From a virus: DNA of 64,000 nt. Below, piece after piece: positions 52,069 to 63,839 of the stretch; positions within the stretch are counted from its first letter, which is position 1; the number at the start of each line of letters is the position of its first letter. Made by a program: the position numbers and the translations under genes. The stretch covers positions 64,001 through 128,000 of IMG/VR virus record IMGVR_UViG_3300013132_000023; one strand, written 5' to 3'. Below the pieces are notes generated by a model. It ran no database searches. It was given only the letters and a program-made list of their open reading frames with translations, and was not told the origin of the DNA.

Positions 52069-52077
52069 ATAGTATGT

Positions 52078-52426: not shown

Positions 52427-52435
52427 GTTTTTATT

Positions 52436-52768: not shown

Positions 52769-53238
52769 CTCTTGGGCTCGTATTTACAGATGATTGCATC
52801 TGGAAAATACGTCTCTATGATCTTGGAATAAATATCCCAATTGCCGCCACCCAGACCACAGCCCATTTTGTATGGAAAGTAGAATTGTCCATTCCAATAC
52901 TTGGATTCTGGATTTCTCCTTCGTGAATTTACAATTCGTTCAAATGCAGTCACGGTCGCGTCGTAGCTCGTCATGCGTTTCGTCCTTGAAACGTCGCCCT
53001 GGCCAAAAACGTTGGCAATTCTGATGGTTGGCGAAGCATTGAACATCCATACCCTGCCAATCAATTGCTCTTGACTAGTATCATATATTTGACAGTATTC
53101 ACGGTACTTGATTTCAAGTTCGGGCCATTTAAGAGCGAAGCTCCTAGCGATGCCGCCCCCCATGATGCCTCGACAATTGACTTGATGAAATAGAATGCCC
53201 TCTTCGAGGGCGAGCATGTCTTGTTCAATAATCTTCAT
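52765..53238 (-). CDS. macro domain (ADP-ribose-processing) protein
   Basis: HQVNC.G.MGGGIA, ANVFGQ, FPYKMGCGLGGGNW. Confidence 0.85.
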   Translation of the reverse strand: MKIIEQDMLALEEGILFHQVNCRGIMGGGIARSFALKWPELEIKYREYCQIYDTSQEQLIGRVWMFNASPTIRIANVFGQGDVSRTKRMTSYDATVTAFERIVNSRRRNPESKYWNGQFYFPYKMGCGLGGGNWDIYSKIIETYFPDAIICKYEPKS

Positions 53239-53245
53239 TGTATTG

Positions 53246-53334
53246 TGGTCCGCTCGGCAGGATTCGAACCTGCGATGGTGATTACTCACTCCAGATTAAA
53301 AGTCTGGCCCCTTCGGCCTCTCGGACACGAGCGG
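53246..53334 (-). tRNA. tRNA-Lys(TTT) with long variable arm
   Basis: CCGCTCG/CGAGCGG, CCAGA-CTTTTAA-TCTGG, 17-nt variable region, CCA. Confidence 0.85.
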
Positions 53335-53354
53335 CGGTTACTCATTGTACACTA

Positions 53355-53383
53355 AGTATAACACGCCGTAGATGTGCTGTCAA
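53355..53383 (-). promoter_or_regulatory. sigma70-like promoter
   Basis: TTGACA-N17-TATACT. Confidence 0.75.
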
Positions 53384-53384
53384 G

Positions 53385-53460
53385 TGGTACTTCCACCAGG
53401 ATTCGAACCTGGACGATTCGCTTAGAAGGCGAAGATGCTGGTCCGTTACATCATGGAAGC
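53385..53460 (-). tRNA. tRNA-Arg(TCT)
   Basis: TTCGC-CTTCTAA-GCGAA, canonical T arm, CCA. Confidence 0.92.
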
Positions 53461-53554
53461 ATATTATTCATTATCGATTACTCTTTGAGCTTCGTCTGCA
53501 AGAGATTGAAGAAAGGCAATATTATTCTTGGCTTTTTCAAGAGAGACTAGTTGT

Positions 53555-53643
53555 TGGTGCATCCGCCAGGATTCGAACCTGGGTTGGGTTTTCACCGTCC
53601 GATTAAGAGTCGGATGCCTTCGGCCAACTCGGCACACGGATGC
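53555..53643 (-). tRNA. tRNA-Lys(CTT) with long variable arm
   Basis: GCATCCG/CGGATGC, TCCGA-CTCTTAA-TCGGA, 15-nt variable region, CCA. Confidence 0.85.
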
Positions 53644-53648
53644 GTGAA

Positions 53649-53725
53649 TGGTCGGGCGTGTTGGAATTGAACCAACCTAATGTCCTCCTTCCAAGGGAGG
53701 CGACCCTCCTTGAGTCCGACGCCCG
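53649..53725 (-). tRNA. tRNA-Pro(TGG)
   Basis: CGGGCGT/ACGCCCG, CCTCC-CTTGGAA-GGAGG, CCA. Confidence 0.88.
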
Positions 53726-53733
53726 TTTTATGT

Positions 53734-53809
53734 TGGTCCGCAGCGATGGTATCGAACCATCTGTCTCTCGGTTATCAGCCGAGTGCATATACCTTTATGC
53801 TTCCTGCGG
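53734..53809 (-). tRNA. tRNA-Ile(GAT)
   Basis: CTCGG-CTGATAA-CCGAG; G:G mismatch at 7:66; CCA. Confidence 0.85.
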
Positions 53810-53838
53810 AATGTTTTAATAGTTCCAAGATTCTTCTT

Positions 53839-54435
53839 CTAGCTTCTTGGTAACGTTGGCGGTGCAACGTATCGCACAAGAAACCGCTTTGATTTTGCAC
53901 GAGCAATGTACTTCTTGGGTAGCTTAAAATCACCGTTGTTACGAATTACATTAAGCATGATTGCACGCAAACGTTGCTCCGGTTCATCGTACCGACTTCC
54001 CCATTCACCGGCTTGTTGAAGAAGATGATGAATTGATTCATCGTCATTTGGATCCATAACACAACATTCAAACGCCGATTCCATGAGTGTCATGTTGCGT
54101 TCTCCAAAGTACTTCTCAACACGAGGCCATATGTCGTAGTCTTTTGTTACAATTTCATAAACAGAGCACTTGTTCTCGATATTCACGAGAGATACAAAAG
54201 CCGCACCAAGAGCACACACCTGACATGTAGTCTTCTTGTTCTTCTTGAAGAAATCCTTGAACGATCCTGCGATCGTCTCATCATATGCACTCATGTCATT
54301 GCGTAACCATGAGTTTAGTTCAGGAGAATCCACTTGGACATACGTTCCAGGCGTTGCCTTGTAACGATTAAAACGAATCTGAGCCAGAACATCCTGGGCG
54401 ATCTTCACACACATCCGACGATTTCGACGAGTCAT
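53839..54435 (-). CDS. hypothetical protein
   Basis: 198 aa; IA.DVLAQ, CQVCALGA.F, E.AFE, RL.AIM.N.I.N.G.F pattern. Confidence 0.65.
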   Translation of the reverse strand: MTRRNRRMCVKIAQDVLAQIRFNRYKATPGTYVQVDSPELNSWLRNDMSAYDETIAGSFKDFFKKNKKTTCQVCALGAAFVSLVNIENKCSVYEIVTKDYDIWPRVEKYFGERNMTLMESAFECCVMDPNDDESIHHLLQQAGEWGSRYDEPEQRLRAIMLNVIRNNGDFKLPKKYIARAKSKRFLVRYVAPPTLPRS

Positions 54436-54462
54436 ATTTGTTGTTATTGTTGTTGTTATTGT

Positions 54463-54549
54463 TGGCGGAAGGTTAGGGAATCGAACCCTAGAGGCTTTTT
54501 ACACCCAGCCGTTTTCAAGACGGTTTCCTCGACCTACCGGACACCTTCC
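54463..54549 (-). tRNA. tRNA-Ser(TGA)
   Basis: GGAAGGT/ACCTTCC, loop CTTGAAA, long arm, G73, CCA. Confidence 0.9.
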
Positions 54550-55001
54550 AAATTTTTCACATCTGCTGGAAAGAGATACTTAGTGAGAACTTCACCAATC
54601 CCACGATCCAGAATAACCGCGAGCAGCTTGTTATGGTCTCCCTCAAACGGGCCGCTCATGAGTTGATCATACCACTTATACCAGTGTTCGTCAAGAACAA
54701 TCTCGACTGGCTGTCCTGGAACGTGCTCGAAATAGTCGGCATCGGTTTTAGGGGCAGCACGCACCTGAATAGTAATTCCGCTTTTACGAGAAGACTGGTC
54801 TTTTACCGGGACGATCTTGTCAATCGGCGGCAGTATGCCAATCCCAAGTGCGTCGTTAATGCGTTCAAACAAAGCCTCAAGAGGCGTTAACCCCTTTGTC
54901 ATTTCTTCTTTCGTGCGTTTGAATCGCTTGGCTCCAGTTACGGTCTTGTAGCTTTCGAGACAAGTGATTTGCTTTGCTTGTTCTTGCGTAATGTCGTTCA
55001 T
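54534..55001 (-). CDS. hypothetical protein sharing the TG..RF..KE domain of 49556..49921
   Basis: ITCLESYKTVTGAKRFKRTKEEMTKGLTPLEALFE; stop inside tRNA-Ser(TGA). Confidence 0.6.
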   Translation of the reverse strand: MNDITQEQAKQITCLESYKTVTGAKRFKRTKEEMTKGLTPLEALFERINDALGIGILPPIDKIVPVKDQSSRKSGITIQVRAAPKTDADYFEHVPGQPVEIVLDEHWYKWYDQLMSGPFEGDHNKLLAVILDRGIGEVLTKYLFPADVKNLEGVR

Positions 55002-55579
55002 TAAAAACTCCATCCCAAATTGATCATATACATTTCGCAATCCAACTCAGGATTGATGATGAAAATGTCTACGTCTTGATTGAAGAAGTGGCGTCGATAT
55101 TCGACTCCCACAAAGATGTTGTCTGTAAAGAACCAAGACGTACCAAAATTGACATATGGTGCGTAAGCTTGACCACGATCTTGCGGAGTGCCAGCGTAAC
55201 TCAAATCTACCTGAGTTTCAAGTTCAAACGAAGACATACCGCCGCTTGCCGACACTTGCCACGAATCCGTGACCATCCAGTTCTTTCGCAAACCCAAATA
55301 CACTTCTTGAACAGTGGTCTTTGTGCTGTCTACGCGACGATTGATATACACATCGTCATTTGACACGTCCTGGCTTTGCATAAAACCGAACTCAGGTCCG
55401 AAGCCATCTTTTCCAGCTAGGTCAATACTGCCACCCAGCACGTTCGTTTGCTGGTCAGTTGATTCCCAATCGCCAGAATCTTGAAAATCGCGAACGCCAA
55501 CCCCGACCTTCGCGTTAGGGGCCATGCGGCAGCTAGTGACAAGCGTAGCAAAAGTCAGAACAGAGAGTAAGTGCTTCAT
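55001..55579 (-). CDS. outer-membrane beta-barrel protein
   Basis: signal peptide ending LVTSC, amphipathic strands, VGVEYR, terminal INLGWSF beta signal. Confidence 0.75.
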   Translation of the reverse strand: MKHLLSVLTFATLVTSCRMAPNAKVGVGVRDFQDSGDWESTDQQTNVLGGSIDLAGKDGFGPEFGFMQSQDVSNDDVYINRRVDSTKTTVQEVYLGLRKNWMVTDSWQVSASGGMSSFELETQVDLSYAGTPQDRGQAYAPYVNFGTSWFFTDNIFVGVEYRRHFFNQDVDIFIINPELDCEMYMINLGWSF

Positions 55580-55586
55580 ATGATCT

Positions 55587-55614
55587 ATTGTACCACACGT
55601 TTGTTCGTTGTCAA
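55587..55614 (-). promoter_or_regulatory. sigma70-like promoter, near-leaderless
   Basis: TTGACA-N16-TACAAT, 7 nt before ATG 55579. Confidence 0.7.
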
Positions 55615-55623
55615 GAAAAAGTT

Positions 55624-55715
55624 TGGCGGTAGGTGTAGGATTTGAACCTACGGAGGTTTTAAAGCCCCGCTTCTTTAGCAAAGAAGTGCCTTAGGCCAGA
55701 CTCAGCCAACCTACC
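55624..55715 (-). tRNA. tRNA-Ser(GCT)
   Basis: GGTAGGT/ACCTACC, CTTCT-TTGCTAA-AGAAG, long arm, CCA. Confidence 0.92.
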
Positions 55716-55720
55716 AATTA

Positions 55721-55795
55721 TGGAGCCCCGTGAAGGATTCGAACCTGGACAAAGAGATTCAAAATCTCTGGTGCTAGCCGTTACACTATACCGGA
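55721..55795 (-). pseudogene. chimeric tRNA-Gln(TTG) with a foreign 3' end
   Basis: 5' TCCGGTA and T-stem CCAGG do not pair with 3' CCTTC-ACGGGGC-TCCA. Confidence 0.75.
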
Positions 55796-56269
55796 AATAA
55801 TCAATTGTTTCTGTGTAGGCCATACGTATTCCATTGTAGGGTCTTCGATCCAATTAAATTGACCGTAATAGACAGGATCTTTGCGAAGCAAGTTTGCACG
55901 ATGTGAAGCATGAAGCTCAGACAATCCAATCCAAGGCGGCATTTCAATGTTTGAAGAAATTGGTCCTGGTCGCATGGTGTTCTCGTATCCGCGATTAATC
56001 CATTCCGCAATAGCTTCATTCATATACGAACGTAACGCTTCATTATATCCACGCCACATAACTGCTGCCGGGTGATTTAACCATCCTTTTTTCAAAGGAC
56101 TGTTTTTCATAAAACCTTGATCAATACGCCATTGACGTTCAGTCAAAGCCCATTCATCGCCATTTACAATCAACAGTTGAAATGCTTCAACACGTTGTTT
56201 GCCGAGACGACGATAATCTAAACACGAAAGAGACTTAGTAAAGTCTGAAAAAGGAAGAAATGTTTGCAT
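55781..56269 (-). CDS. pyrimidine-dimer glycosylase-like (MSMEG_6728 family) protein
   Basis: MQTFLP, LD..RLGKQRVEA, NHPA..MW.GY, HASHR.NLLRKD, Y.WP. Confidence 0.85.
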   Translation of the reverse strand: MQTFLPFSDFTKSLSCLDYRRLGKQRVEAFQLLIVNGDEWALTERQWRIDQGFMKNSPLKKGWLNHPAAVMWRGYNEALRSYMNEAIAEWINRGYENTMRPGPISSNIEMPPWIGLSELHASHRANLLRKDPVYYGQFNWIEDPTMEYVWPTQKQLIISGIV

Positions 56270-56270
56270 A

Positions 56271-56483
56271 TTACATCTTGGTGATGCAACGATCAACACC
56301 CGTCAAAAACAAGGCAAGAATAATCACTCCTAGAATGATTGCCACAGGAATCCAAAGCGGGGCGAGCACCCACAGCCAAGGCCAGTTAATAATGTTGCCA
56401 AGCTTGAGGCCGATGAAAAGAATGGCCAATAGGCCAGTAAAGCCAACACCGCCCGAGCGAACTTTGATTTTTTGATTAGACAT
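56271..56483 (-). CDS. small membrane protein
   Basis: GGVGFTGLL.ILFI.LKL...I.W.W.WVLAPLW. Confidence 0.75.
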   Translation of the reverse strand: MSNQKIKVRSGGVGFTGLLAILFIGLKLGNIINWPWLWVLAPLWIPVAIILGVIILALFLTGVDRCITKM

Positions 56484-56528
56484 TGGATTGTGTTTAGGTT
56501 GAGGTTCAAGTTTAGTAGTAACAACCAC

Positions 56529-56556
56529 AGTATATCATGTCTCCTGGAGTTGTCAA
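56529..56556 (-). promoter_or_regulatory. sigma70-like promoter
   Basis: TTGACA-N16-TATACT. Confidence 0.7.
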
Positions 56557-56570
56557 GTGAAAATTAACGT

Positions 56571-56645
56571 TGGCGGGCCTACGGGGAATCGAACCCCGAT
56601 CTTCTATTCGACAGACAGATATTCTAGCCTTTGAACTATAGGCCC
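56571..56645 (-). tRNA. tRNA-Asp(GTC)
   Basis: GGGCCTA/TAGGCCC, loop CTGTCGA, G73, CCA. Confidence 0.9.
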
Positions 56646-56652
56646 ATTGTTT

Positions 56653-56727
56653 TGGTGCCTCCCCCAGGTAACGCTCCTGAGCCTCCAGTATTTCAAGCTG
56701 GAATGCAGACTTCTACACCAGGGAGGC
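56653..56727 (-). tRNA. tRNA-Phe(GAA), atypical T loop
   Basis: GCCTCCC/GGGAGGC, loop TTGAAAT, T loop AGCGTTA, CCA. Confidence 0.78.
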
Positions 56728-56801
56728 GGATCTTCTAACAGGATAATGTTTCCGAGTCGCACGTCTCTGTGCTTCTGATGCTTTCGCCATGATTTTGTTT
56801 T

Positions 56802-56877
56802 TGGGGTGCCTAACGAGTATCGATCTCGTACCTGGAGATTCACATTCTCCCGTGCAGGCCACTACACTATAGACACC
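56802..56877 (-). tRNA. tRNA-His(GTG)
   Basis: G-1:C73, GGAGA-ATGTGAA-TCTCC, CCA. Confidence 0.88.
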
Positions 56878-56884
56878 GCTATGA

Positions 56885-56962
56885 TGGTAGCCACAGCGGG
56901 ATTCGAACCCAGCACTTTACAGATTTTAAGTCTGTTGACTCTGCCGATTGGTCTACGTGGCC
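56885..56962 (-). tRNA. tRNA-Leu(TAA), short variable loop
   Basis: GGCCACG/TGTGGCT, ACAGA-CTTAAAA-TCTGT, CCA. Confidence 0.85.
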
Positions 56963-56988
56963 ATAAGTTGTTTGTTTTCAAAGCTGTA

Positions 56989-57006
56989 CGCTATTCGCGA
57001 ATAGCG
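56989..57006. repeat. 18-bp perfect palindrome
   Basis: CGCTATTCGCGAATAGCG in tRNA spacer. Confidence 0.9.
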
Positions 57007-57013
57007 AATGTAT

Positions 57014-57105
57014 TGGTCCGCAGGGTGGGATTCGAACCCACGTATTTCGCATATCAGGCGATGACTGATCATAAATCAGGGGGCTTACCGCTAACCGACC
57101 TGCGG
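57014..57105 (-). tRNA. tRNA-Ile(TAT) with long variable arm
   Basis: CCGCAGG/CCTGCGG, loop TTTATGA, ~22-nt variable region with TCGC/GCGA stem, CCA. Confidence 0.8.
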
Positions 57106-57135
57106 AAAAAGTTTGCCCCCAGGACAAAGGAAGTC

Positions 57136-57270
57136 CTAATTGTACCTGATACGATCTTCACCTTCTTCTTCGAACCATTCTTCGGTCTCGAAGTCCTCGG
57201 CGACGACGCGGTAATCATACACTGCGTCCTCGTCCGTGTCAAGTGTTGTTTCGAAAGATTCTTCTTCCAT
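57136..57270 (-). CDS. 44-aa highly acidic protein
   Basis: MEEESFETTLDTDEDAVYDYRVVAEDFETEEWFEEEGEDRIRYN between two tRNAs. Confidence 0.55.
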   Translation of the reverse strand: MEEESFETTLDTDEDAVYDYRVVAEDFETEEWFEEEGEDRIRYN

Positions 57271-57275
57271 TGTAT

Positions 57276-57368
57276 TGGCTCCGAGAGTAGGACTCGAACC
57301 TACGGTGGGGGAATTTCTCCCCTTCGCATTAACAGTGCGATGCGTGCTACCAACTCCGCAACCTCGGA
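57276..57368 (-). tRNA. tRNA-Asn(GTT) with long variable arm
   Basis: TCCGAGG/TCTCGGA, TCGCA-CTGTTAA-TGCGA, GGGGA/TCCCC extra stem, G73, CCA. Confidence 0.85.
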
Positions 57369-57381
57369 ACGTTGTTGTTGC

Positions 57382-57454
57382 TTGCGAGACTAGGATTCGC
57401 ACCTAGGTTTCTCCGGTCAGAGCGGAGCGTACTAGGCTGCTGTACGATCCCGCA
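57382..57454 (-). tRNA. tRNA-Gln(CTG), CCA not encoded
   Basis: TGCGGGA/TCTCGCA, CTCCG-CTCTGAC-CGGAG, T loop TGCGAAT. Confidence 0.82.
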
Positions 57455-57461
57455 GTAAAGC

Positions 57462-57761
57462 TTATTCGTATACCGTGATAGTCTTTTGCCGAGCAATCAC
57501 TTCGCGGTAACCATTGAATTCGGCACCATGATACGACTGATACCAGCCGTCAACGCGAATCAGGACTTCTGTGTCGCCATTCTTGAAACGCCACACGGTC
57601 CAGTAATCAGACCCTTGGTCTTGGCCTCCGTAATGAGCAACACACTTTTCATCAAAACTCCATCCTTCCGGAATGGGCGAATCAAAATCATCGTCCAAAT
57701 AATTGGACAAAAGCTTCTCAGCATTTTTATCTAACCAATCACGTAGTTCTGCACTGATCAT
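57462..57761 (-). CDS. hypothetical protein
   Basis: YGG.DQG..YW.V..F......GWY.SY.G phage family pattern. Confidence 0.65.
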   Translation of the reverse strand: MISAELRDWLDKNAEKLLSNYLDDDFDSPIPEGWSFDEKCVAHYGGQDQGSDYWTVWRFKNGDTEVLIRVDGWYQSYHGAEFNGYREVIARQKTITVYE

Positions 57762-58609
57762 AGTTTTTTCCAGATATCGGATTCAAAAAACCGCTCGAAA
57801 ACCACATTGTCAAACTGCTTGACTATGTTCCAGTTGTCGATAGCGTACTCCCTAAGCGGACCATCGTCAAGAGTCGTACAGACTTTTTCGAGGGCACGCA
57901 TGTATGCAATACGATATGAGAATCGTGTTCCCTTAATGCGATTTGGAATGATAAATCTTTCCAACGCAATGACGTACGTTTCTTCACGAACGCATGCTTG
58001 TTTTAGTTCATCAGAAGCAGCGTACCATAGATCTATGTCGTACGCTGCCTTGGACATGTCTTTCTTTAGCTGAAAGTACGACGGCGTACCACCAACAATG
58101 ATCTTGTGAATGTCTTCGTGATTAAACACGCGGACAACTGCATCTTTGATAAATTCCTCATTTGTCATGTCTCCAAATGGATTTCTATGAGGAAAGTACT
58201 TTCTGGTTTCCGCCATGCGGCGACTAATGAATTCGCGATCTTCATCCGTGAAATCATGATCCAGAATTTGGTACTGAATCATGTGTTTCGTGAAATTAAA
58301 GTCACGATACATATGCGAACGTTTGATTGCAGCAAGGCCACGAGAACTACATACTTTGACTAAAAGTCTACCATCAGCTAGAGCAGTCTTGTCTGTTCCA
58401 TACTTCGATTCGATTTCATGATTAAGGAAGAAAGCATCGTTATGTAATTCGATGTTTCCAAACTTCCATGAAAAGACCTTGCGATCACATGTCTTTTGAA
58501 GCAAATTTTCAGCTTCAAAGTGAGACACGATCACATCCCAATCCTTAGGATTCTTGGGACGGTGTTCTGGATGCCAGATAGAAGTAGCTCGTGAACCAAT
58601 TAGCAGCAT
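57758..58609 (-). CDS. phage protein with nucleotidyltransferase-like N-terminus
   Basis: LIGSRA...DWD, IKRSH, HEDIH, EE.YV.ALER, KVCTT. Confidence 0.65.
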   Translation of the reverse strand: MLLIGSRATSIWHPEHRPKNPKDWDVIVSHFEAENLLQKTCDRKVFSWKFGNIELHNDAFFLNHEIESKYGTDKTALADGRLLVKVCSSRGLAAIKRSHMYRDFNFTKHMIQYQILDHDFTDEDREFISRRMAETRKYFPHRNPFGDMTNEEFIKDAVVRVFNHEDIHKIIVGGTPSYFQLKKDMSKAAYDIDLWYAASDELKQACVREETYVIALERFIIPNRIKGTRFSYRIAYMRALEKVCTTLDDGPLREYAIDNWNIVKQFDNVVFERFFESDIWKKL

Positions 58610-58617
58610 ATTGTTTG

Positions 58618-58688
58618 CAGGGGCATAAGGAATCGAACCCTAGTCTATCGCTTTGGAGGCGAGTATATTACCACTATACTATACCCCT
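58618..58688 (-). tRNA. tRNA-Trp(CCA), CCA tail not encoded
   Basis: AGGGGTA/TGCCCCT, loop CTCCAAA, G73. Confidence 0.85.
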
Positions 58689-58694
58689 ATGTTT

Positions 58695-58768
58695 TGGTAC
58701 CCATTGAGGGAATCGAACCCACGCAGCTACCTTGTAGGGATAGTGTTCTGCCATTAAACTAAACGGGT
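58695..58768 (-). tRNA. tRNA-Val(TAC), C at position 33
   Basis: ACCCGTT/AATGGGT, CTATC-CCTACAA-GGTAG, CCA. Confidence 0.8.
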
Positions 58769-58771
58769 ATA

Positions 58772-59011
58772 TTATTCGATTTCAAGAACTTCGCCACGCT
58801 TACCAGCTTCATGAGCTTCCTTCAAAAGCTCAACGATACCGTAACAATCGTTAAAATTCCTGCATAAATTATTGTCTTCTATTTCTCCGTTGTTTATGAT
58901 GGAGAAATACAAGACAATATCATAAACAACAAATACCCGTTTGTCGTTGATGTAGATTTCGATACAAGAAGTTCCATCTTCGCGATCTGTAATCTTTTCT
59001 TTGATTTTCAT
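58772..59011 (-). CDS. hypothetical protein
   Basis: 79-aa ORF in three-gene operon. Confidence 0.55.
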   Translation of the reverse strand: MKIKEKITDREDGTSCIEIYINDKRVFVVYDIVLYFSIINNGEIEDNNLCRNFNDCYGIVELLKEAHEAGKRGEVLEIE

Positions 59012-59274
59012 AGTTCAATTCCTGAGTTCTTGCAAAATTCCAGATACTCTTGACTTGGAGCACCAAGTTCATACACAGATCCAGAGTACGTTCGTGCCGT
59101 TCTGTTCTTCACGTCAATTTCCATCAAGGAAGATGATGTAATCCTATGACCCGCTGGGTAACGTGGGTGTCCGTAAACTTGACCAGTGAGCGACTTGAAT
59201 CGTCTTTCTGGAGCAGTGTATTCATTTACACCTGGAGAGTCTACGATACCCCAATCTTCAATTGCTATTTTCAT
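59008..59274 (-). CDS. hypothetical protein
   Basis: L.G.VYGHP....G..I.SS...T.SG..Y.LG.P pattern. Confidence 0.65.
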   Translation of the reverse strand: MKIAIEDWGIVDSPGVNEYTAPERRFKSLTGQVYGHPRYPAGHRITSSSLMEIDVKNRTARTYSGSVYELGAPSQEYLEFCKNSGIEL

Positions 59275-59465
59275 GATCTTTTCAAGATTTCATCTAGCTT
59301 GTCGAATGAAGGCACGCTTGAATTATGCCAACGATAACACAATGGACAGTAGTACGGATATCTATCGCAGTCCGCTTTTTGTGCGACTTGAAAAGAAGCG
59401 TATGCTCTTTTACTAAGACACATCCTGTGCTTCCTGAGTTTCTTGCGTTGACGATTCGAAAGCAT
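59271..59465 (-). CDS. small basic Zn-finger protein
   Basis: C..KR.Y...Y.CP.C..WH. Confidence 0.6.
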   Translation of the reverse strand: MLSNRQRKKLRKHRMCLSKRAYASFQVAQKADCDRYPYYCPLCYRWHNSSVPSFDKLDEILKRS

Positions 59466-59471
59466 GTTGTT

Positions 59472-59500
59472 AGTATATCCCTTGATGTCTAAGTTGTCAA
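59472..59500 (-). promoter_or_regulatory. sigma70-like promoter, leaderless
   Basis: TTGACA-N17-TATACT, 6 nt before ATG 59465. Confidence 0.75.
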
Positions 59501-59507
59501 GGAAAAA

Positions 59508-59583
59508 TGGAGCCGCCGATGGGACTCGAACCCATAACCCCCTGATTACAAATCAGGAGCACCACCAATTGTGCTACAGCGGC
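59508..59583 (-). tRNA. tRNA-Thr(TGT)
   Basis: GCCGCTG/CGGCGGC, CCTGA-TTTGTAA-TCAGG, CCA. Confidence 0.93.
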
Positions 59584-59586
59584 CTA

Positions 59587-59661
59587 TGGTCCTGGGTACG
59601 GGTATCGATCCCGTTTCTAGTCCTTGAAAGGGACTTATCCTAGCCACTAGACGAACCCAGG
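59587..59661 (-). tRNA. tRNA-Glu(TTC)
   Basis: CCTGGGT/ACCCAGG, AGTCC-CTTTCAA-GGACT, CCA. Confidence 0.88.
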
Positions 59662-59666
59662 TTGAA

Positions 59667-59987
59667 TGGTGGACACGGAGCGGTTTTTGTCATTGTGTTA
59701 AAATCCTAGATCGTCTGGACCTTCAAGCTTTGCCTTACCACAGCAAGATGCTTGAAGACTATGAGGGGAAACCCCGCAAAATCATTAATATTTTGCGAGC
59801 ACTCAAATTGTCCGTAATCACTTCCAGATACGTTCATCATCCCACTAGGTTACCCGGCTAATTACTTCCGAGTGTTTTGGTAGCTTAAAAGAGGGTGTAC
59901 TGTAGCCTATACATGCATGTTGTACACCATGGCGAGCAGTATCAAGCACGGAATTGTACTGCATAATCCGCTCTAAGCCTCTCCGTG
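59667..59987 (-). ncRNA. unassigned ~320-nt structured RNA ending in GUCC-ACCA
   Basis: terminal CACGGAG/CTCCGTG and GAGCGG/CCGCTC pairings plus at least five internal helices; no ORF of 60 aa or more. Confidence 0.65.
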
Positions 59988-60020
59988 AAGCGTTGTTCAT
60001 TCTTCTCTTTCAAGCTATTC

Positions 60021-60096
60021 TGGTGGAGAGCATGGGAATTGAACCCACCCCACGGACCTTGCAAAGGTCTGTCGCCACCTTGGTACATGGCCCCCC
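60021..60096 (-). tRNA. tRNA-Ala(TGC)
   Basis: GGGGGGC/GCTCTCC with G3:U70, loop TTTGCAA, CCA. Confidence 0.85.
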
Positions 60097-60098
60097 AT

Positions 60099-60177
60099 AA
60101 CAGCGATCACTTTAAGATTAACCCCTACAACTCACGCCCAGCATTACCTGATAGTAGGGATCTCAAAAATCGCTGTT
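60099..60177 (-). ncRNA. candidate ~80-nt rod-like RNA
   Basis: AACAGCGAT/ATCGCTGTT, TTTTGAGAT/ATCTTAAAG, CCCTAC/GTAGGG stacked stems. Confidence 0.45.
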
Positions 60178-60183
60178 GTTTTA

Positions 60184-60297
60184 TGGCCAGTCGTGTGGCA
60201 GACTGGTAAGCCTCGTTGTCTTTCTCTTTACAACGCAAGAGAGCCGAACTGCCCATGTGGCCAATCCCCTATCTCGTCGGCAGAAGCGTAGGGATAC
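60184..60297 (-). ncRNA. candidate 114-nt pseudoknotted RNA ending in GCCA
   Basis: begins right after the CCA of tRNA-Gly; ATCCCTA/TAGGGGAT, TCTCTT/AAGAGA with loop CGTTGT pairing to ACAACG, CCAGTC/GACTGG. Confidence 0.5.
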
Positions 60298-60375
60298 TGG
60301 AGTCTCTTGTGGGAGTTGCACCCACACCTTACGGCTTGGAAGGCCGATGTGCTATCTATTAAACACCAAAGAGAC
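60298..60375 (-). tRNA. tRNA-Gly(TCC)
   Basis: GTCTCTT/AAGAGAC, loop CTTCCAA, U73, CCA. Confidence 0.85.
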
Positions 60376-60380
60376 GTATA

Positions 60381-60466
60381 TGGTGCCAGCAGCAGGATTC
60401 GAACCTGCGACGCCTTTTGAGTCACGGTTTACAGCCGCGTGCCATCGACCACTCGACCATACTGGC
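60381..60466 (-). tRNA. tRNA-Tyr(GTA)
   Basis: GCCAGTA/TGCTGGC, loop CTGTAAA, long arm, CCA. Confidence 0.92.
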
Positions 60467-60477
60467 AATTGTACTGA

Positions 60478-60548
60478 CTCCCTTGGTGAGTGTTTCACTC
60501 ACGTCTCCATCTAACGCGGATGGTGTCTTACGCCTAAACGACAAGGAA
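60478..60548 (-). tRNA. tRNA-like gene with atypical anticodon loop CGCGTTA (nominal CGT)
   Basis: full cloverleaf: TTCCTTG/CAAGGGA, CCATC/GATGG, GTGAG/CTCAC; T loop TGAAACA; no CCA. Confidence 0.65.
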
Positions 60549-60551
60549 TTA

Positions 60552-60843
60552 AGTGTGCTGGGAATAGGTATATTCACCCAACTATGTCTTTTTCCAGACT
60601 GCTTACTTAAAAATAAGTAGCCCTATGACTTTCGATCTCCACTTGTGGTCTCGCTTTGATCGCTTTTCTTTAAAGTCAAGAAAACGTACGTCCACTGAAC
60701 GACACTTGACTTACATCTTAACCGATTTTTCAATTAGCCACTAATGTAGCTAGGTCGTTTTCATTTGTTAGGCTCACCGACTTACACGGCTATCCCTTTC
60801 GGGGTTTGGTTGCACCACCTACGCTTGCCGACCACAAGCTCGT
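60552..60843 (-). ncRNA. unassigned ~290-nt structured RNA at the head of the tRNA operon
   Basis: 10-bp long-range helix 60830-60839/60641-60650, CCC-GAAA-GGG, TAGCTAC/GTGGCTA, TTTTCTT/AAGAAAA and other stems; follows a promoter. Confidence 0.55.
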
Positions 60844-60849
60844 ACCACT

Positions 60850-60877
60850 ATTATACACCACTTTCGGTGTTCTGCAA
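60850..60877 (-). promoter_or_regulatory. sigma70-like promoter of the ncRNA/tRNA operon
   Basis: TTGCAG-N16-TATAAT with TG upstream of the -10. Confidence 0.65.
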
Positions 60878-60894
60878 CCAAAAATCTGGAAAAA

Positions 60895-61917
60895 CTACGA
60901 TTTCTTCGGTCGCTTGCAGTTTTTAGCGTGCTTCTTGCCACCCTTAGCCCCGCAGTACGTGCAGGCCGCACGCTTCGGAGTCTTAACAGCAACCTTCGGA
61001 GCATCAGCCACGTCGTCGTATTCATCCAGGGGACAGTCGCCGAAATCCAGGCCCATGTCTTCATCCAACTCAGGCACGTCGTCCTGGTACTCTTCGGGCT
61101 GGACGTTCACGGCAACGTACAGAGGTTCCTCCATGATTCGTTCGCAAATATCCACGACCTCGTAACGACACACGCGAAGCTTCTCGCAAGAATGGTCGCG
61201 AGGAACCGATACCGCATCACGAGGATTAACCTTAACAAGAACAAGCTTGCCATCGGAGCTAGCAAAGTCACTGGCGTACTTGTGCGTGCCAACGTGGAAA
61301 CCAGTTGAACAAGCTGCGTTCGTGTCGGGATCGACTTGTTCACGCGGCATTTCGTTCACAGAACCAATGCTGTTATCGAACGTTTGAGTATGACGATCCT
61401 TGAAGTCGCTCGTCAAGCCCTTGTACGCCATAAAACACCCATCGTGCGTGATAGGGAAGTTGCCGTGCTTGAGGAAGTCGTACAATTCGTTTCGCGAACG
61501 CTCATTCGGGTTCTCCATCAAGTTAGCAAGGAAACGAGCCAGCGGCTTATAAGGAAGCTGTTGTCGCACGAAACTGCTAATCGTGTCAGCAATCACGCTA
61601 TGCACTTGTTCGCCATTGTAGAACACTTCGCCATATTGGTTAACCGTCACGCCCTCAATTCGCTTTTCAAGCGAAGCCGGAATGTCGAGCAATGGATCAA
61701 GACGATCAGATTCATTATTAGTGAGACACGCTACAATTGCATTGTAGTTAGGATGCGTCTTGCCAATAGAATGCGTTCTGCCATTCCAGGCGATTGTGAT
61801 GTTTCCATCGTTCGTCATGATGAACTTAGGAGTCGGCTTTTCAGGCAGACCTACATCAATAAGAACTTCTTCTTGATTGATGCCAGTCAGTCGTTTGATA
61901 ATGTCGAAGATACTCAT
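60895..61917 (-). CDS. rIIB: rIIB-like protein
   Basis: HPNY, F..NL..NP, ELY.FL, IT.DG.F.AYK, V..D....CS.G.HV, VKVNP.D.VSVP.D, K.RVCRY. Confidence 0.9.
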   Translation of the reverse strand: MSIFDIIKRLTGINQEEVLIDVGLPEKPTPKFIMTNDGNITIAWNGRTHSIGKTHPNYNAIVACLTNNESDRLDPLLDIPASLEKRIEGVTVNQYGEVFYNGEQVHSVIADTISSFVRQQLPYKPLARFLANLMENPNERSRNELYDFLKHGNFPITHDGCFMAYKGLTSDFKDRHTQTFDNSIGSVNEMPREQVDPDTNAACSTGFHVGTHKYASDFASSDGKLVLVKVNPRDAVSVPRDHSCEKLRVCRYEVVDICERIMEEPLYVAVNVQPEEYQDDVPELDEDMGLDFGDCPLDEYDDVADAPKVAVKTPKRAACTYCGAKGGKKHAKNCKRPKKS

Positions 61918-63839
61918 TGTTGGCCTTTCAGTTTGATGTATTCAACAACGTCTTCCTTGTGGACGTGTTGCAGATTGACGTGAGACAGGAGTGGATAGGT
62001 AGCGTCGAAAACGTCCTTGAAGTTAGGAGCTTCTGCCACCTTGATACCAAACATAGTGATCATACCACGAGTAGTGTTACCAAGGTCGGTAGATTTTGAG
62101 AATTTTGCGAGATCATCACAGACGGGCGACAGACCAACGATCCATTCCACGAAAGAATTGGGGGTCGAGTAGCTGTCGAAGCCGTGATGATATCTAGCCA
62201 ATTGGTAAATATCGAGAGCGTCAACTGCATCTTGAGCATATTGACGAGCTTCTTCTTCCAGATCGGGCAGACCAAGCTCGGTGCGAATGCGGTCATAGTA
62301 TGCCTCGGCGATACCGTAGACTCGCTCGTAGCCCATTTGTCTGGCAATCGTGATGGCAACTTCGCCATCGTATTCTTTGCCACCGATCTTACACATAAGA
62401 CCTTTGCGAGGAACCGCAATGGCATCTTTTACGTCAATTTCAGCTTCCGCAATGGACCGCCAGCAGTCAGAACGAAAGTTGCCGCGTCGAGCGGACTTAA
62501 TGTAAGAACGCTCGCCTGCGGAGACTCGTCGAGCAGCCCTCGGGGGCTCGGGCAGACTAGACAACGTAGCAGTAACACCACCGAATGTCTCTTCGAACTT
62601 TGCACGATCTTTGATCGTAGCAAGATAGAAGACGCCACGTTGACTGTTCAAGAAGTGACGAAGCTTATTCTTGTCAGATTGCTTAAGTTCACCCTCCACG
62701 TCACACTCAACAATCACGTAGTGAGTGTCGGCATTAGGATTAAGTTCCGTCTGCCAGCGATCATGACCAATGAAAATCTTGTTCTTTCGAAGATCGACAC
62801 GCTTAAGCGAGTAGTCGGCAGTTTCCGTCTTAATGGTACTCGTTGCGTGCTGGAAGGAAATCACGCTGCGATAGAAACGAAGAGCCTTAATCTTTTGAAC
62901 CAAACAAATATGCTTGCCAAGATCATCTTCCACGGTTTTAGTGACTTCACTTGATGCCGCGTCAATAAGGCGTTGAATATTAGCCTTCGTGTCTTCGCTG
63001 TAGTGAAGTTCTTCGCGACTAGCGGCAAATTCAACTTGGCCGATATCCACAAAGAGAACCATCGCGGCATTATCGCCCAAAATGTGCCTGAAGTGTTGCA
63101 TGGCAACCGGGTAACAAATATTACCCATAACCACGTTGACACGACTCGTCAAAAAAGCACCGTGCATTCCGCAATCGTAGAGTTCGTAACCCTTTCCCTT
63201 GAAACGGGGCTCGACTGACGGAAATTCAACCTTGGCACCAACAATCTTCGGACGCGTCGGGAAGAAACGATAGACGCGTTGAGCCGCAGCCTGAAACTGG
63301 TAGGCGTCACCTTCTTGGATATTGATGCGAATTTCAACACCATTAGGCTCACTAGATTCTTGAGTGGAAAGCAAAGCAATGCTCGGCTCTCCTTGTTCAT
63401 TCTTGAAAGCAGAATAGGTGTACATGTTACCGTTCCAGTACGACGTAATCGTAAACTGATCGGTATACGCGAAAGGCGACTTGCTTCCCAGGCCGAGAGC
63501 ACCAACGAACTCGTTAGATTCCGAACGAGAACTAGCGAAGTAAGTCGTGTAGATGTGTTCGACCTGATCGGGAGAAAGACCCGTTCCAAAGTCACGAATC
63601 GAGAAAAACGGAGCAAAGCTGTTCGGCAGATGGACCTCGAAAGGACGGTCTTGCGTACCAGCTTCGACTTGAGCGTCCCATGCGTTCGTGGAAAGCTCAC
63701 GAACGATAGCCAAGCGAGTGTCTGTGTAAAGCTTGCTTGACAGAATGTGAAACGCCTTGGCGTTTGCAGCGATCTTGAACTTCGCTTCCGGGAAGCCCCC
63801 GGAGCGAGTAACAGCGTTGGTGGTTTGTTGGAGTTGCAT
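61914..63839 (-). CDS. rIIA: rIIA-like protein (GHKL ATPase N-terminus)
   Basis: KAF.ILS..LY, VREL..NA.DA, IRDFGTGL, G.LGLGSKSPFAY, SREEL.Y; adjacent to rIIB. Confidence 0.92.
   Translation of the reverse strand: MQLQQTTNAVTRSGGFPEAKFKIAANAKAFHILSSKLYTDTRLAIVRELSTNAWDAQVEAGTQDRPFEVHLPNSFAPFFSIRDFGTGLSPDQVEHIYTTYFASSRSESNEFVGALGLGSKSPFAYTDQFTITSYWNGNMYTYSAFKNEQGEPSIALLSTQESSEPNGVEIRINIQEGDAYQFQAAAQRVYRFFPTRPKIVGAKVEFPSVEPRFKGKGYELYDCGMHGAFLTSRVNVVMGNICYPVAMQHFRHILGDNAAMVLFVDIGQVEFAASREELHYSEDTKANIQRLIDAASSEVTKTVEDDLGKHICLVQKIKALRFYRSVISFQHATSTIKTETADYSLKRVDLRKNKIFIGHDRWQTELNPNADTHYVIVECDVEGELKQSDKNKLRHFLNSQRGVFYLATIKDRAKFEETFGGVTATLSSLPEPPRAARRVSAGERSYIKSARRGNFRSDCWRSIAEAEIDVKDAIAVPRKGLMCKIGGKEYDGEVAITIARQMGYERVYGIAEAYYDRIRTELGLPDLEEEARQYAQDAVDALDIYQLARYHHGFDSYSTPNSFVEWIVGLSPVCDDLAKFSKSTDLGNTTRGMITMFGIKVAEAPNFKDVFDATYPLLSHVNLQHVHKEDVVEYIKLKGQQ

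What the first reader, a model, noticed from the sequence alone, without database searches (positions are those of the whole stretch)
59508..60877. A 1.35-kb non-coding operon alternating tRNAs with unassigned structured RNAs
Seen: from the promoter at 60850-60877 the - strand reads ~290-nt structured RNA, tRNA-like gene, Tyr, Gly, 114-nt pseudoknotted RNA ending CCA, 80-nt rod, Ala, ~320-nt RNA ending ACCA, Glu, Thr, with short spacers and no credible protein gene in an otherwise fully coding genome. Established: large phage ncRNAs such as GOLLD and ROOL and theta ribozymes occur next to tRNA genes, and tRNA processing can punctuate transcripts. Inference: tRNAs act as cut marks releasing a set of novel RNAs (translation or anti-defence effectors), or all parts form one large RNA with embedded tRNAs. 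This is the best candidate for an undescribed system.
Basis: partly seen in the sequence, partly recalled or inferred. Interest (0 to 1): 0.85.

Follow-up and report, generated by a model that had tools for sequence, protein, structure and literature searches.

The report
Non-coding RNA cassettes, phage tRNA operon
The first stretch of this uncultured lake phage's tRNA gene row carries about 1 kb of non-coding, partly strongly folded RNA between the tRNAs, the same kind of thing as the long-known but unexplained small stable RNAs of phages T4 and T5, so it is real but not a new kind of system.

Summary
On the minus strand, a promoter (60877-60850) is followed by a ~295-nt leader, a non-decoding cloverleaf, tRNA-Tyr, tRNA-Gly, 202 nt, tRNA-Ala, 359 nt, tRNA-Glu and tRNA-Thr.

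The non-tRNA parts have no Rfam match, no protein-family match, and only short frames with the codon usage of spurious ORFs.

Structure is uneven:
- Two pieces are strong outliers: an 88-nt rod (z -5.8) and a 140-nt four-way junction closed by a 13-bp stem and ending ACCA (z -4.6).
- The "114-nt pseudoknotted RNA" and the rest are not above background.

The ACCA end of the "320-nt RNA" is best read as a displaced tRNA-Ala 3' fragment left by recombination. The spacers are absent from the nearest relatives, and pieces recur as modules in another lake phage.

"Undescribed system" is not supported. The T4 record annotates rnaC/rnaD and the T5 record eight "stable RNAs with unknown functions", including a promoter-proximal RNAX and tRNA-like RNAs, in the same layout. 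I found no support for a single giant RNA, a ribozyme, tmRNA, GOLLD or ROOL.

This scan has noted the same kind of array before on other DNA (322 notes, at least 308 genomes). Expression and processing are untested.

The parts
60850..60877 (-). Sigma-70-like promoter, TTGCAG (60877-60872), 16-nt spacer, TATAAT (60855-60850); predicted start near 60843
   Evidence: Read. Not flagged by the consensus scan because the -35 matches 3 of 6. L002 has TTGACG-17-TATAAT with the same GTGTATAATAG upstream of its tRNAs.
60549..60843 (-). About 295-nt non-coding 5' leader; a 10-bp long-range helix (60839-60830 with 60650-60641) encloses about 200 nt
   Evidence: z -2.93, 0 of 100 shuffles as good. No Rfam hit. 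Frames of 30 and 36 aa have spurious-type codon scores. The part 60651-60781 recurs in a relative in run X6 with 5 differences and 1 gap, and unlike sequence upstream. That part alone folds at z -1.10.
60478..60548 (-). tRNA-shaped RNA that cannot decode: all four stems intact, G33/U37 anticodon loop, T loop UGAAACA, no CCA
   Evidence: ARAGORN finds it only at the 80% threshold. The Rfam tRNA model gives no hit at E<=10. z -2.41. No exact 38-mer in IMG/VR.
60381..60466 (-). tRNA-Tyr(GTA)
   Evidence: (54.8 bits)
60298..60375 (-). tRNA-Gly(TCC)
   Evidence: (36.5 bits)
60184..60297 (-). 114-nt spacer piece; candidate H-type pseudoknot at 60242-60214; 6-bp hairpin (60206-60201 with 60192-60187) followed by CCA (60186-60184)
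   Evidence: Nested fold z -0.68. The pseudoknot pattern is not rarer than chance genome-wide. Absent from L002, where Gly and Ala lie 14 nt apart. The terminal hairpin folds at z -1.23.
60099..60177 (-). Rod: 24 bp in three coaxial segments (10+8+6) plus a small apical hairpin; ends 2-3 nt before tRNA-Ala
   Evidence: z -5.77, 0 of 200 shuffles; -7.6 in my own run with 40 shuffles. Folds as a local domain in the full-length fold, with 30 internal pairs. No other copy in the genome. No exact 24-mer in IMG/VR.
60021..60096 (-). tRNA-Ala(TGC) with G3:U70 and an aberrant, weak D arm
   Evidence: ARAGORN. The Rfam tRNA model does not report it; the best clan hit is tmRNA at 15.7 bits. The 5' 54 nt are 91% identical to L002, and the gene is 87% identical to L005.
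59878..60017 (-). RNA-A: 140-nt four-way junction. A 13-bp clamp (60017-60005 with 59893-59881) encloses three hairpins, the last contiguous with the clamp, and is followed by CCA (ACCA at 59881-59878). It starts 3 nt after the CCA of tRNA-Ala.
   Evidence: z -4.63, 0 of 200 shuffles; -4.90 for 59871-60020. Folds as a local domain in the full-length fold. Same clamp-plus-three-hairpin shape as T5 RNAIII and RNAIV. The overlapping 51-aa frame is not in the 5.8-billion-protein database and has a spurious-type codon score.
59701..59849 (-). Module B: 149-nt segment shared with a relative phage in another context
   Evidence: X6 record 28 matches only this part; the contig runs on unlike the window on both sides. 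16 nt (7+1+2+6) are missing at 59775-59795; this removes a hairpin and breaks the 44-aa frame. One A-U to G-U change falls in the long hairpin. Alone it folds at z -1.32.
59662..59682 (-). Displaced tRNA-Ala 3' fragment: T-stem 3' strand, acceptor 3' strand, ACCA and the TTCAA trailer
   Evidence: 19 of 21 identical to the 3' end and trailer of L002 tRNA-Ala (E 0.03-0.19). L002 and L005 both have YTCAA after the CCA of tRNA-Ala; in the window that trailer follows the fragment, not the working gene.
59587..59661 (-). tRNA-Glu(TTC)
   Evidence: (53.1 bits)
59508..59583 (-). tRNA-Thr(TGT), followed by a T run and then the next promoter (TTGACA-17-TATACT, 59500-59472)
   Evidence: (67.3 bits)

Best explanation
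This is the promoter-proximal transcription unit of the tRNA array of an uncultured lake phage. It lies directly downstream of rIIA/rIIB.

One sigma-70-like promoter drives a polycistronic precursor. In it, five working tRNAs alternate with non-coding RNA cassettes:
- a ~295-nt leader;
- a non-decoding cloverleaf;
- a 114-nt piece;
- a 24-bp rod;
- a 140-nt four-way junction (RNA-A) closed by a 13-bp stem and ending ACCA;
- a 149-nt module;
- a left-over tRNA-Ala 3' fragment.

Inferred mechanism. Host RNase P cuts at the 5' side of every tRNA, of the cloverleaf, and probably of the acceptor-like clamp of RNA-A. 3' trimming stops at the helix-plus-CCA ends. The phage's own CCA-adding enzyme can repair those ends. 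The rod is long enough to be an RNase III site that separates the Tyr-Gly half from the Ala half. The cassettes are thus released as discrete small RNAs, like T4 RNA C/D and the T5 stable RNAs.

The cassettes are lineage-specific and are swapped by recombination at or next to tRNA genes.

What is shown: gene order, absence of coding signal, strong structure of the rod and of RNA-A, the mosaic history, and the T4/T5 parallel. What is inferred: transcription as one unit, the cut sites, stability of the products, and any function in trans.
For: tRNAs and cloverleaf.

No known RNA family:
- No Rfam family in the spacers at E<=10.
- As a control, Rfam also has no family for T4 rnaC/rnaD.

Non-coding:
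- Longest sense frames are 51, 44 and 43 aa.
- 0 Pfam and 0 PHROG families for 6 small frames.
- For 9 stop-read-through frames, the only Pfam row is one chance-level hit (DUF3103, E 0.32, 10.3 bits against a cut-off of 25).
- tblastn of three frames against 50,697 phage records gave nothing but one E 0.3 hit.
- The 51-aa frame is absent from the protein database.
- Codon scores run from -0.09 to -0.26. Spurious frames average -0.28 +/- 0.16 and real genes 0.22 +/- 0.17. A 44-aa acidic ORF in another tRNA gap scores 0.37.
- Alternative codes open nothing.
- A relative has a 16-nt deletion inside the 44-aa frame.

Structure:
- Rod z -5.77; RNA-A z -4.63 to -4.90.
- Only 2 of 277 random genome windows reach z <= -4.
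- Four other short inter-tRNA gaps of the same array fold at z +0.39, -0.04, -1.86 and +0.24.

RNA-A looks like a tRNA in its frame: it starts 3 nt after the previous CCA, has a 13-bp clamp contiguous with its last hairpin, and is followed by CCA.

Precedent:
- T4 rnaC/rnaD lie directly after tRNA-Arg.
- T5 has eight annotated stable RNAs, including promoter-RNAX-tRNA-Arg, RNA2H-tRNA-Ala and the tRNA-like RNA1-3.
- All six T5 RNAs that I folded are closed by a 5'/3' terminal helix. RNAI ends GCCA and RNA3 ends ACCA.
- Passages read: the roles of RNAC/RNAD are unknown (PMC3014915); both are expressed late and shown by Northern blot (PMC9697503).

Sister phage L002 has an unrelated, non-coding, strongly folded 304-nt stretch at the same place after tRNA-Ala (z -4.77).

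A CCA-adding enzyme with an HD domain, two RNA ligases and a kinase lie next to the array.
Against: - No conservation. The spacers are absent from the nearest relatives L002 (rIIB 69% identical) and L005, both at the syntenic place and in their whole records.
- No match in 50,697 phage records beyond the tRNAs.
- All five exact-pattern scans of IMG/VR with pieces of the leader, the cloverleaf and the two spacers found 0 stretches, and so did the one GTDB scan.
- So there is no covariation test at all.
- Three of the pieces (the 114-nt piece, module B, the leader middle) fold no better than genome background.
- One of the 277 random windows reached z -6.27, so a strong z alone is not proof.
- In the relative in X6, two substitutions break one predicted 4-bp leader helix (one search read).
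- Part of the 359-nt stretch is visibly recombination debris, so some of the rest may be too.
- The CCA after the clamp has about a 3% chance of occurring at random.
- Transcription, cut sites and stability are all inferred.
Confidence: 0.55

Rival explanations
1. Neutral filler. The non-tRNA stretches are debris of repeated illegitimate recombination at tRNA genes. They are transcribed only because they lie between tRNAs and are degraded after processing. Their structure is incidental or merely tolerated.
For: - A displaced tRNA-Ala 3' fragment sits at the end of the 359-nt stretch, while the conserved YTCAA trailer follows it rather than the working gene.
- Gly and Ala are 14 nt apart in L002 but 202 nt apart here.
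- A relative in X6 has 386 extra letters between tRNA-Glu and tRNA-Thr, and it carries 59701-59849 and 60651-60781 in unlike contexts.
- The spacers are absent from the nearest relatives.
- Three pieces fold at background level.
Against: - Two pieces are in the top 1% of the genome for structure. Two such windows within about 1 kb is far more than the 0.7% background rate predicts.
- RNA-A is framed like a tRNA: 3-nt spacing, a 13-bp clamp and ACCA.
- All four stems of the cloverleaf are intact although its loops are aberrant. That is not what decay predicts.
- L002 keeps an unrelated but equally structured non-coding stretch at the same position.
- The rest of the array is tightly packed with ORFs.
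Confidence: 0.3
2. The stretches encode small proteins (the 51-, 44- and 43-aa frames), as other gaps of the same array do.
For: - The frames 60000-59845, 59840-59706 and 60256-60125 nearly tile two of the spacers.
- A real-looking 44-aa acidic ORF sits in another tRNA gap at 57270-57136.
Against: - Their codon scores lie inside the spurious-frame distribution and below 97-98% of real in-frame chunks.
- No Pfam, PHROG or tblastn relatives.
- The 51-aa frame was not found in the protein database.
- A relative has a 16-nt deletion in the 44-aa frame.
- A 13-bp long-range helix and a 24-bp rod overlap the frames.
Confidence: 0.05
3. All parts fold into one large RNA with embedded tRNAs, GOLLD-like.
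For: In the passages I read, GOLLD and ROOL lie near phage tRNA islands, and tRNAs sometimes sit in the GOLLD linker (PMC12286853).
Against: - No GOLLD or ROOL hit at E<=10.
- Best duplexes between the three stretches are not better than shuffles (z -1.38, +1.21, +2.14).
- In the 1341-nt fold the rod, RNA-A and module B pair within themselves.
Confidence: 0.03
4. One of the pieces is a member of a known catalytic or functional family: an HDV-like theta ribozyme after tRNA-Gly, or a tmRNA (tRNA-Ala-like end plus a tag frame in the leader).
For: - The 114-nt piece starts with G directly after the CCA of tRNA-Gly, and P1-, P3- and P1.1-like pairings can be drawn (by eye).
- In the passages I read, theta ribozymes sit next to phage tRNAs (PMC10879173).
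- The tmRNA model touches the tRNA-Ala gene.
Against: - No HDV-family or tmRNA hit in the spacers at E<=10.
- No P2 partner, and three extra bases between P3 and P1 (by eye).
- ARAGORN finds no tmRNA at normal or 80% thresholds.
- The mini-frame in the leader carries a 1-nt deletion in the X6 relative.
Confidence: 0.03

Closest known systems
Phage T5 stable RNAs of the tRNA region (RNAI, RNAIII, RNAIV, RNA2H, RNAX; tRNA-like RNA1, RNA2, RNA3), annotated in NC_005859
   Same: - Same strand and same rows as the tRNAs, with no ORF.
- A long promoter-proximal RNA before the first tRNA (RNAX, 719 nt, before tRNA-Arg).
- A stable RNA next to tRNA-Ala (RNA2H).
- tRNA-shaped non-tRNAs.
- RNAs of 100-170 nt closed by a 5'/3' terminal helix. 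RNAIII has a 12-bp clamp plus three hairpins, like RNA-A. Some end in NCCA.
- Function unknown.
   Different: - No sequence similarity. blastn and nhmmer found only a T-loop word.
- T5's RNAs were seen as stable species according to their annotation; here expression is untested.
- The phages are unrelated.
Phage T4 rnaC (species 1, 139 nt) and rnaD (species 2, 119 nt)
   Same: - They lie directly after a tRNA in the tRNA cluster (1-nt and 6-nt spacers).
- rnaC is strongly structured (z -4.57) with a long rod and a T arm.
- rnaD's annotated end plus the next base reads CACCA.
- Their roles are unknown (PMC3014915, passage read).
   Different: - No sequence similarity.
- The window has more and longer pieces, plus a leader.
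- That RNase III cleaves T4 species 1 RNA is recalled by me and rests on no call.
GOLLD and ROOL large phage RNAs
   Same: Large non-coding RNAs encoded near phage tRNA islands (PMC12286853, passages read). Phage K lncRNAs are compared to them by position (PMC9241854, passage read).
   Different: No match to either covariance model at E<=10. The pieces here are smaller and fold locally.
HDV-like theta ribozymes next to phage tRNAs
   Same: Position immediately 3' of a tRNA. They have a proposed role in 3'-trailer processing (PMC10879173, passages read).
   Different: The defining nested double pseudoknot is incomplete (no P2), and no Rfam HDV-family hit was found.

Membership tests
Stable non-tRNA RNAs of phage tRNA clusters (T4 rnaC/rnaD, T5 RNAI-IV, 2H, X, RNA1-3): a kind, not a homologous family | Encoded inside a tRNA gene row, on the same strand, without a protein gene | tested here: met
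   layout compared
Stable non-tRNA RNAs of phage tRNA clusters | 5'/3' terminal helix or tRNA-like frame, in some cases with an NCCA end | tested here: met
   RNA-A has a 13-bp clamp followed by CCA. The cloverleaf is at 60478-60548. All six T5 RNAs that I folded are end-clamped. Not met for the 114-nt piece or module B by statistics.
Stable non-tRNA RNAs of phage tRNA clusters | Accumulate as discrete stable RNA species after processing of the tRNA precursor | not testable with these tools
   No RNA run was listed among the 8 holders; this is not evidence either way.
Stable non-tRNA RNAs of phage tRNA clusters | Sequence homology to a T4 or T5 member | tested here: not met
   blastn and nhmmer found only T-loop words.
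HDV-like (theta) ribozyme | Nested double pseudoknot P1, P1.1, P2, P3 with the cleavage site at the first base of P1 | tested here: not met
   P1-like (6 bp, not starting at G1), P3-like and P1.1-like pairings can be drawn, but there is no P2 partner and three bases lie between P3 and P1 (by eye). No HDV-family hit at E<=10.
GOLLD / ROOL | Match to the family covariance model | tested here: not met
   None at E<=10 over 51500-61200
tmRNA | tRNA-Ala-like domain formed by the 5' and 3' ends, plus pseudoknots and a tag frame | tested here: not met
   The only hit is 15.7 bits (gathering score 47), on the tRNA-Ala gene itself. ARAGORN finds none at default or 80% thresholds. The leader mini-frame has a 1-nt deletion in a relative.
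tRNA (for 60478-60548) | Cloverleaf with U33, purine 37, a T-loop of the TTCRA type and an NCCA end | tested here: not met
   The cloverleaf stems are all present, but the piece has G33, U37, T loop TGAAACA and no CCA. No Rfam tRNA hit at E<=10.
RNase III substrate (for the rod) | About two turns (20 bp or more) of mostly regular double-stranded RNA | tested here: met
   24 predicted pairs in three coaxial segments. Cleavage itself is not testable here.

The most novel reading that the evidence does not exclude
RNA-A (a 13-bp acceptor-like clamp, three arms, an ACCA end) and the non-decoding cloverleaf are working tRNA mimics. They are matured by RNase P and kept CCA-tipped by the phage's own CCA-adding enzyme. 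They act as decoys or sponges for host tRNA-directed defences (anticodon nucleases, tRNA-sensing systems) or for tRNA-handling enzymes. On this reading, the swappable cassettes between phage tRNAs are a counter-defence arsenal that turns over as fast as defence genes do. This would also give a function to the T4 and T5 stable RNAs.
Probability: 0.12. Interest if true: 0.75.

Novelty: new member of a known kind. Interest (0 to 1): 0.3.

Why it matters
Small stable RNAs inside phage tRNA clusters have been known in T4 and T5 for decades, and their function is still unknown (PMC3014915, PMC9697503, passages read; T5 annotation).

This locus adds an environmental example with three useful features:
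- a cleanly tRNA-framed 140-nt RNA;
- a long rod placed like a processing site;
- a visible recombination scar, which shows how such cassettes are gained next to tRNA genes.

On its own it cannot settle what these RNAs do. The phage is uncultured, the pieces have no usable relatives in the collections I could reach, and expression is untested. Its value is as one more data point for the view that tRNA operons are general carriers of passenger RNAs. This scan has already noted that pattern on much other DNA.

Tried and rejected
Homologue hunting
- blastn (distant mode) of 59400-61000 against 50,697 phage records: 56 records matched. All 40 listed rows lie on the tRNA parts, and 0 cover 80% of the query.
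- rIIB-anchored loci: L002, L005 and L006 from IMG/VR. L004, from the one metagenome scan, ends right after rIIB and was useless.
- blastn and nhmmer of the three stretches against those loci and the rest of the window matched only tRNA-Ala and the 21-nt fragment.
- The whole records of L002, L005 and L006 matched only at tRNAs.
- Six exact-pattern scans of IMG/VR: one, with the tRNA-Ala core, found only L002's own contig, and five found 0. One GTDB genome scan found 0.
- The rIIB search found 252 proteins at E<=1e-20, some on long contigs at 60-62% identity.

Expression
- No RNA holder was listed among the 8 runs.

Reads laid
- X3, X4 and X5 gave identical short contigs and no information.
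- Parts without cover in X6 say nothing.
- A joint 59539-to-60390 in X3 (one contig, shorter side 22 letters) I take to be a tRNA look-alike from another organism.

Readings rejected
- tmRNA, HDV-like/theta, GOLLD/ROOL and any other Rfam family.
- Permuted tmRNA: ARAGORN calls appear only at the 60% noise threshold.
- Remnant of a homing endonuclease or other gene: nine stop-read-through frames gave only one chance-level Pfam row (DUF3103, E 0.32, below its cut-off).
- Stop-codon reassignment.
- A repeat family within the genome.
- Homology to T4 or T5 stable RNAs.
- One large RNA.

Other points
- My first codon score, with stop codons left in the null, was uninformative. I replaced it.
- The repeat scan missed the rod because its arms are shorter than the threshold I set.
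- Supplementary files of papers were not opened. The list of theta-ribozyme examples in PMC10879173 may bear on the ribozyme question.


Full report
WHERE IT IS

The window is bases 64001-128000 of a 137,177-base IMG/VR virus record, estimated 87% complete. Runs that hold the stretch are lake-water and freshwater-sediment metagenomes.

The finding lies on the minus strand, directly downstream of rIIA (61914-63839) and rIIB (60895-61917). It is the head of a 24-tRNA array that runs down to 51992.

Beyond the array lie an Rnl1-type RNA ligase, a CCA-adding enzyme with an HD domain, an AAA_33 kinase and a second RNA ligase.

No cultured phage is close: the best rIIB identity among 50,697 phage records is about 41%.

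THE OBSERVATION

ARAGORN and Rfam confirm tRNA-Tyr, Gly, Ala, Glu and Thr at the stated places.

The 'tRNA-like gene' is real. At ARAGORN's 80% threshold it is a 71-nt cloverleaf with all four stems paired. It has G33 and U37 in the anticodon loop, a T loop without the TTC motif, and no CCA. The Rfam tRNA model does not see it.

Three non-tRNA stretches remain:
- 60467-60894, of which about 295 nt lie after the predicted start;
- 60096-60297;
- 59662-60020.

Nothing in Rfam 15 hits them even at E<=10. This by itself says little. As a control, Rfam also has no family for the classical T4 RNAs rnaC and rnaD.

CODING OR NOT

The longest sense-strand frames are 51, 44 and 43 aa.
- They match no Pfam or PHROG family.
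- Nothing turned up in a tblastn of 50,697 phage records, apart from one E 0.3 hit.
- The 51-aa frame is not among the 5.8 billion predicted proteins.
- Read through their stops, the nine forward frames gave only one chance-level Pfam row (DUF3103, E 0.32, below its cut-off).
- Alternative codes open nothing that does not run through a tRNA.

I scored codon usage against two references: 284 spurious 40-60-aa frames inside long genes, and in-frame chunks of 80 long genes.
- The spacer frames score -0.09 to -0.26.
- Spurious frames average -0.28 +/- 0.16; real chunks average 0.22 +/- 0.17.
- A 44-aa acidic ORF in another gap of the same array scores 0.37.

A relative phage has 16 bases missing inside the 44-aa frame. 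I take the stretches as non-coding.

By contrast, the rest of the array is packed with ORFs of 64-283 aa between the tRNAs.

STRUCTURE

Whole stretches fold at z -2.93, -2.79 and -2.64. This is only about the 5th percentile of 277 random 150-nt windows of the same genome (mean -0.61, sd 1.22; 13 of 277 at <= -3; 2 of 277 at <= -4; minimum -6.27).

Split into pieces, the signal sits in two places.

1. The rod, 60177-60099. It has 24 pairs in three coaxial segments. z is -5.77, with 0 of 200 shuffles as good. It ends 2-3 nt before tRNA-Ala.

2. RNA-A, 60017-59878. z is -4.63, with 0 of 200 shuffles as good.
   - A 13-bp clamp encloses three hairpins.
   - The last hairpin is contiguous with the 3' strand of the clamp, as a T arm is with an acceptor stem.
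   - The clamp is followed by CCA, so the end reads ACCA.
   - The RNA starts 3 nt after the CCA of tRNA-Ala, the spacing used between tRNAs in this row.

The other pieces are not above background:
- the 114-nt piece, z -0.68;
- 59701-59849, z -1.32;
- 60651-60781, z -1.10.

The two interleaved 6-bp stems of the claimed pseudoknot exist. The same pattern occurs at 3 distinct loci in this genome, against 2.8 hits expected in Markov-shuffled genomes.

Four other short gaps between tRNAs in the same array fold at z +0.39, -0.04, -1.86 and +0.24.

In a fold of the whole 1341-nt unit, the rod, RNA-A and 59662-59849 pair within themselves. No pair of stretches forms a duplex better than shuffles.

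HISTORY

The nearest relative, L002 (rIIB 69% identical), has the same promoter motif and the order leader, Gly, Ala, spacer. It has no sequence similarity in any spacer.
- Its Gly and Ala are 14 nt apart, against 202 nt here.
- After its tRNA-Ala lies an unrelated 304-nt non-coding stretch with z -4.77.

The last 21 nt of the 359-nt stretch match the T-stem 3' strand, acceptor 3' strand, CCA and TTCAA trailer of L002's tRNA-Ala at 19 of 21 positions. In both L002 and L005, tRNA-Ala is followed by YTCAA. In the window that trailer follows the fragment, while the working tRNA-Ala, whose acceptor and T arms resemble the L005 allele, is followed by RNA-A.

The simplest reading is that a donor segment, tRNA-Ala plus about 338 nt, replaced most of a resident tRNA-Ala and left its 3' end behind. 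The 'ACCA end of a 320-nt RNA' is therefore most likely a scar.

Contigs of run X6, from a different study, show a relative with:
- only 59701-59849: three listed substitutions, one of them A-U to G-U in a predicted hairpin, and a 16-nt loss that removes one hairpin, with unlike sequence on both sides;
- only 60651-60781: one U-G to C-G change and one loop deletion in a hairpin, and two changes that break a weak 4-bp helix;
- 386 extra letters between tRNA-Glu and tRNA-Thr.

The gaps between tRNAs are thus sites of gain, loss and exchange of cassettes.

WHAT IT IS LIKE

The T4 record annotates rnaD (119 nt) and rnaC (139 nt) directly after tRNA-Arg.
- rnaC folds at z -4.57 with a long rod and a T arm.
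- rnaD's annotated end plus the next base reads CACCA.

The T5 record annotates eight 'stable RNA with unknown functions' or 'tRNA-like stable RNA' features in its tRNA region. They include:
- promoter-RNAX (719 nt)-tRNA-Arg;
- promoter-RNA2H-tRNA-Ala;
- RNA1, RNA2 and RNA3.

All six T5 RNAs that I folded are closed by a 5'/3' terminal helix. RNAIII has a 12-bp clamp and three hairpins, like RNA-A. RNAI ends GCCA and RNA3 ends ACCA. Their z-scores, -0.7 to -3.0, show that a weak z does not exclude a stable RNA.

None is similar in sequence to the window's pieces.

From passages I read:
- The roles of T4 RNAC/RNAD are unknown (PMC3014915), and they are late RNAs seen on Northern blots (PMC9697503).
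- GOLLD and ROOL lie near phage tRNA islands (PMC12286853).
- Phage K has abundant lncRNAs next to its tRNAs (PMC9241854).
- Theta ribozymes are proposed to process the 3' trailers of phage tRNAs (PMC10879173).

MECHANISM (INFERRED)

- One transcript starts near 60843.
- RNase P cuts 5' of each tRNA, of the cloverleaf (which would define the leader's 3' end) and probably of RNA-A. RNA-A's 12-13-bp clamp plus ACCA resembles the acceptor/T-arm stack with RCCA that bacterial RNase P recognises. That recognition rule is established knowledge and was not tested here.
- 3' trimming stops at helix-plus-CCA ends.
- The rod offers two turns of duplex for RNase III.
- The released pieces either persist like the T4/T5 RNAs or are degraded.

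I put 0.55 on selected, processed RNA cassettes of the T4/T5 kind. I put 0.30 on mostly neutral filler. The remainder goes to small proteins, one large RNA, or a known family.

VERDICT

The 'undescribed system' claim is not supported. This is a new member of a known, still unexplained kind.

Earlier notes of this scan describe the same kind of array on other DNA: 322 notes in at least 308 genomes. One of them led me to the T5 annotation, which I checked myself.

Noticed in passing
window 60021-60096; L002 7815-7889; L005 8989-9064: The tRNA-Ala(TGC) of this phage group has a weak, irregular D arm. The Rfam tRNA model does not report it in any of the three phages. Yet its D and anticodon region is 87-91% conserved and G3:U70 is kept. 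In the window, the best hit within the tRNA clan is the tmRNA model at 15.7 bits.
   Followed up: partly
window 60195-60210 (minus strand) against 16842-16857 (plus strand): A 16-nt stretch of the 114-nt spacer piece is perfectly complementary to codons 18-23 of the plus-strand ORF 16789-17457 (222 aa, no Pfam family). BLAST E is 0.003 for that query, and I expect roughly 0.06 such matches for all spacers against the genome. It could be chance or an antisense target.
   Followed up: partly
window 57136-57270, minus strand: The 170-nt gap between tRNA-Ile(TAT) and tRNA-Asn holds a 44-aa very acidic ORF. Its codon score is typical of real genes (0.37), so some gaps of the array do encode micro-proteins.
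   Followed up: partly
window 59271-59465, minus strand: The 64-aa Cys-rich ORF behind the strong promoter at 59500-59472 (11 of 12 matches) has a codon score typical of spurious frames (-0.27) and no Pfam or PHROG family. It may be atypical, or it may not be a gene.
   Followed up: no
L002 7891-8194 and 7904-7912: The sister phage has an unrelated, non-coding, strongly folded 304-nt stretch after its tRNA-Ala (z -4.77). It also has a second TTCCACCA about 15 nt after the CCA of that tRNA. This hints at repeated duplication of tRNA 3' ends in this group.
   Followed up: partly
run X6, contig matching window 59508-59661: A relative has tRNA-Glu and tRNA-Thr (3 differences each) separated by 386 extra letters instead of 3 nt.
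   Followed up: no
window 58868-58947: Nested inverted repeats (19-nt arms at 95% and 12-nt arms at 100%) lie inside the 79-aa ORF 58772-59011, together with promoter-like sites on both strands.
   Followed up: no
L005 9192-9267: The more distant relative carries a tRNA with anticodon CTA (an amber-suppressor type, called Pyl by ARAGORN) next to its tRNA-Ala. The window has no such tRNA.
   Followed up: no
window 44703-51388: A tRNA repair and maintenance set lies next to the array: an Rnl1-type ligase, a CCA-adding enzyme with an HD domain, an AAA_33 kinase, an SSB, and a second RNA ligase with an OB domain.
   Followed up: partly
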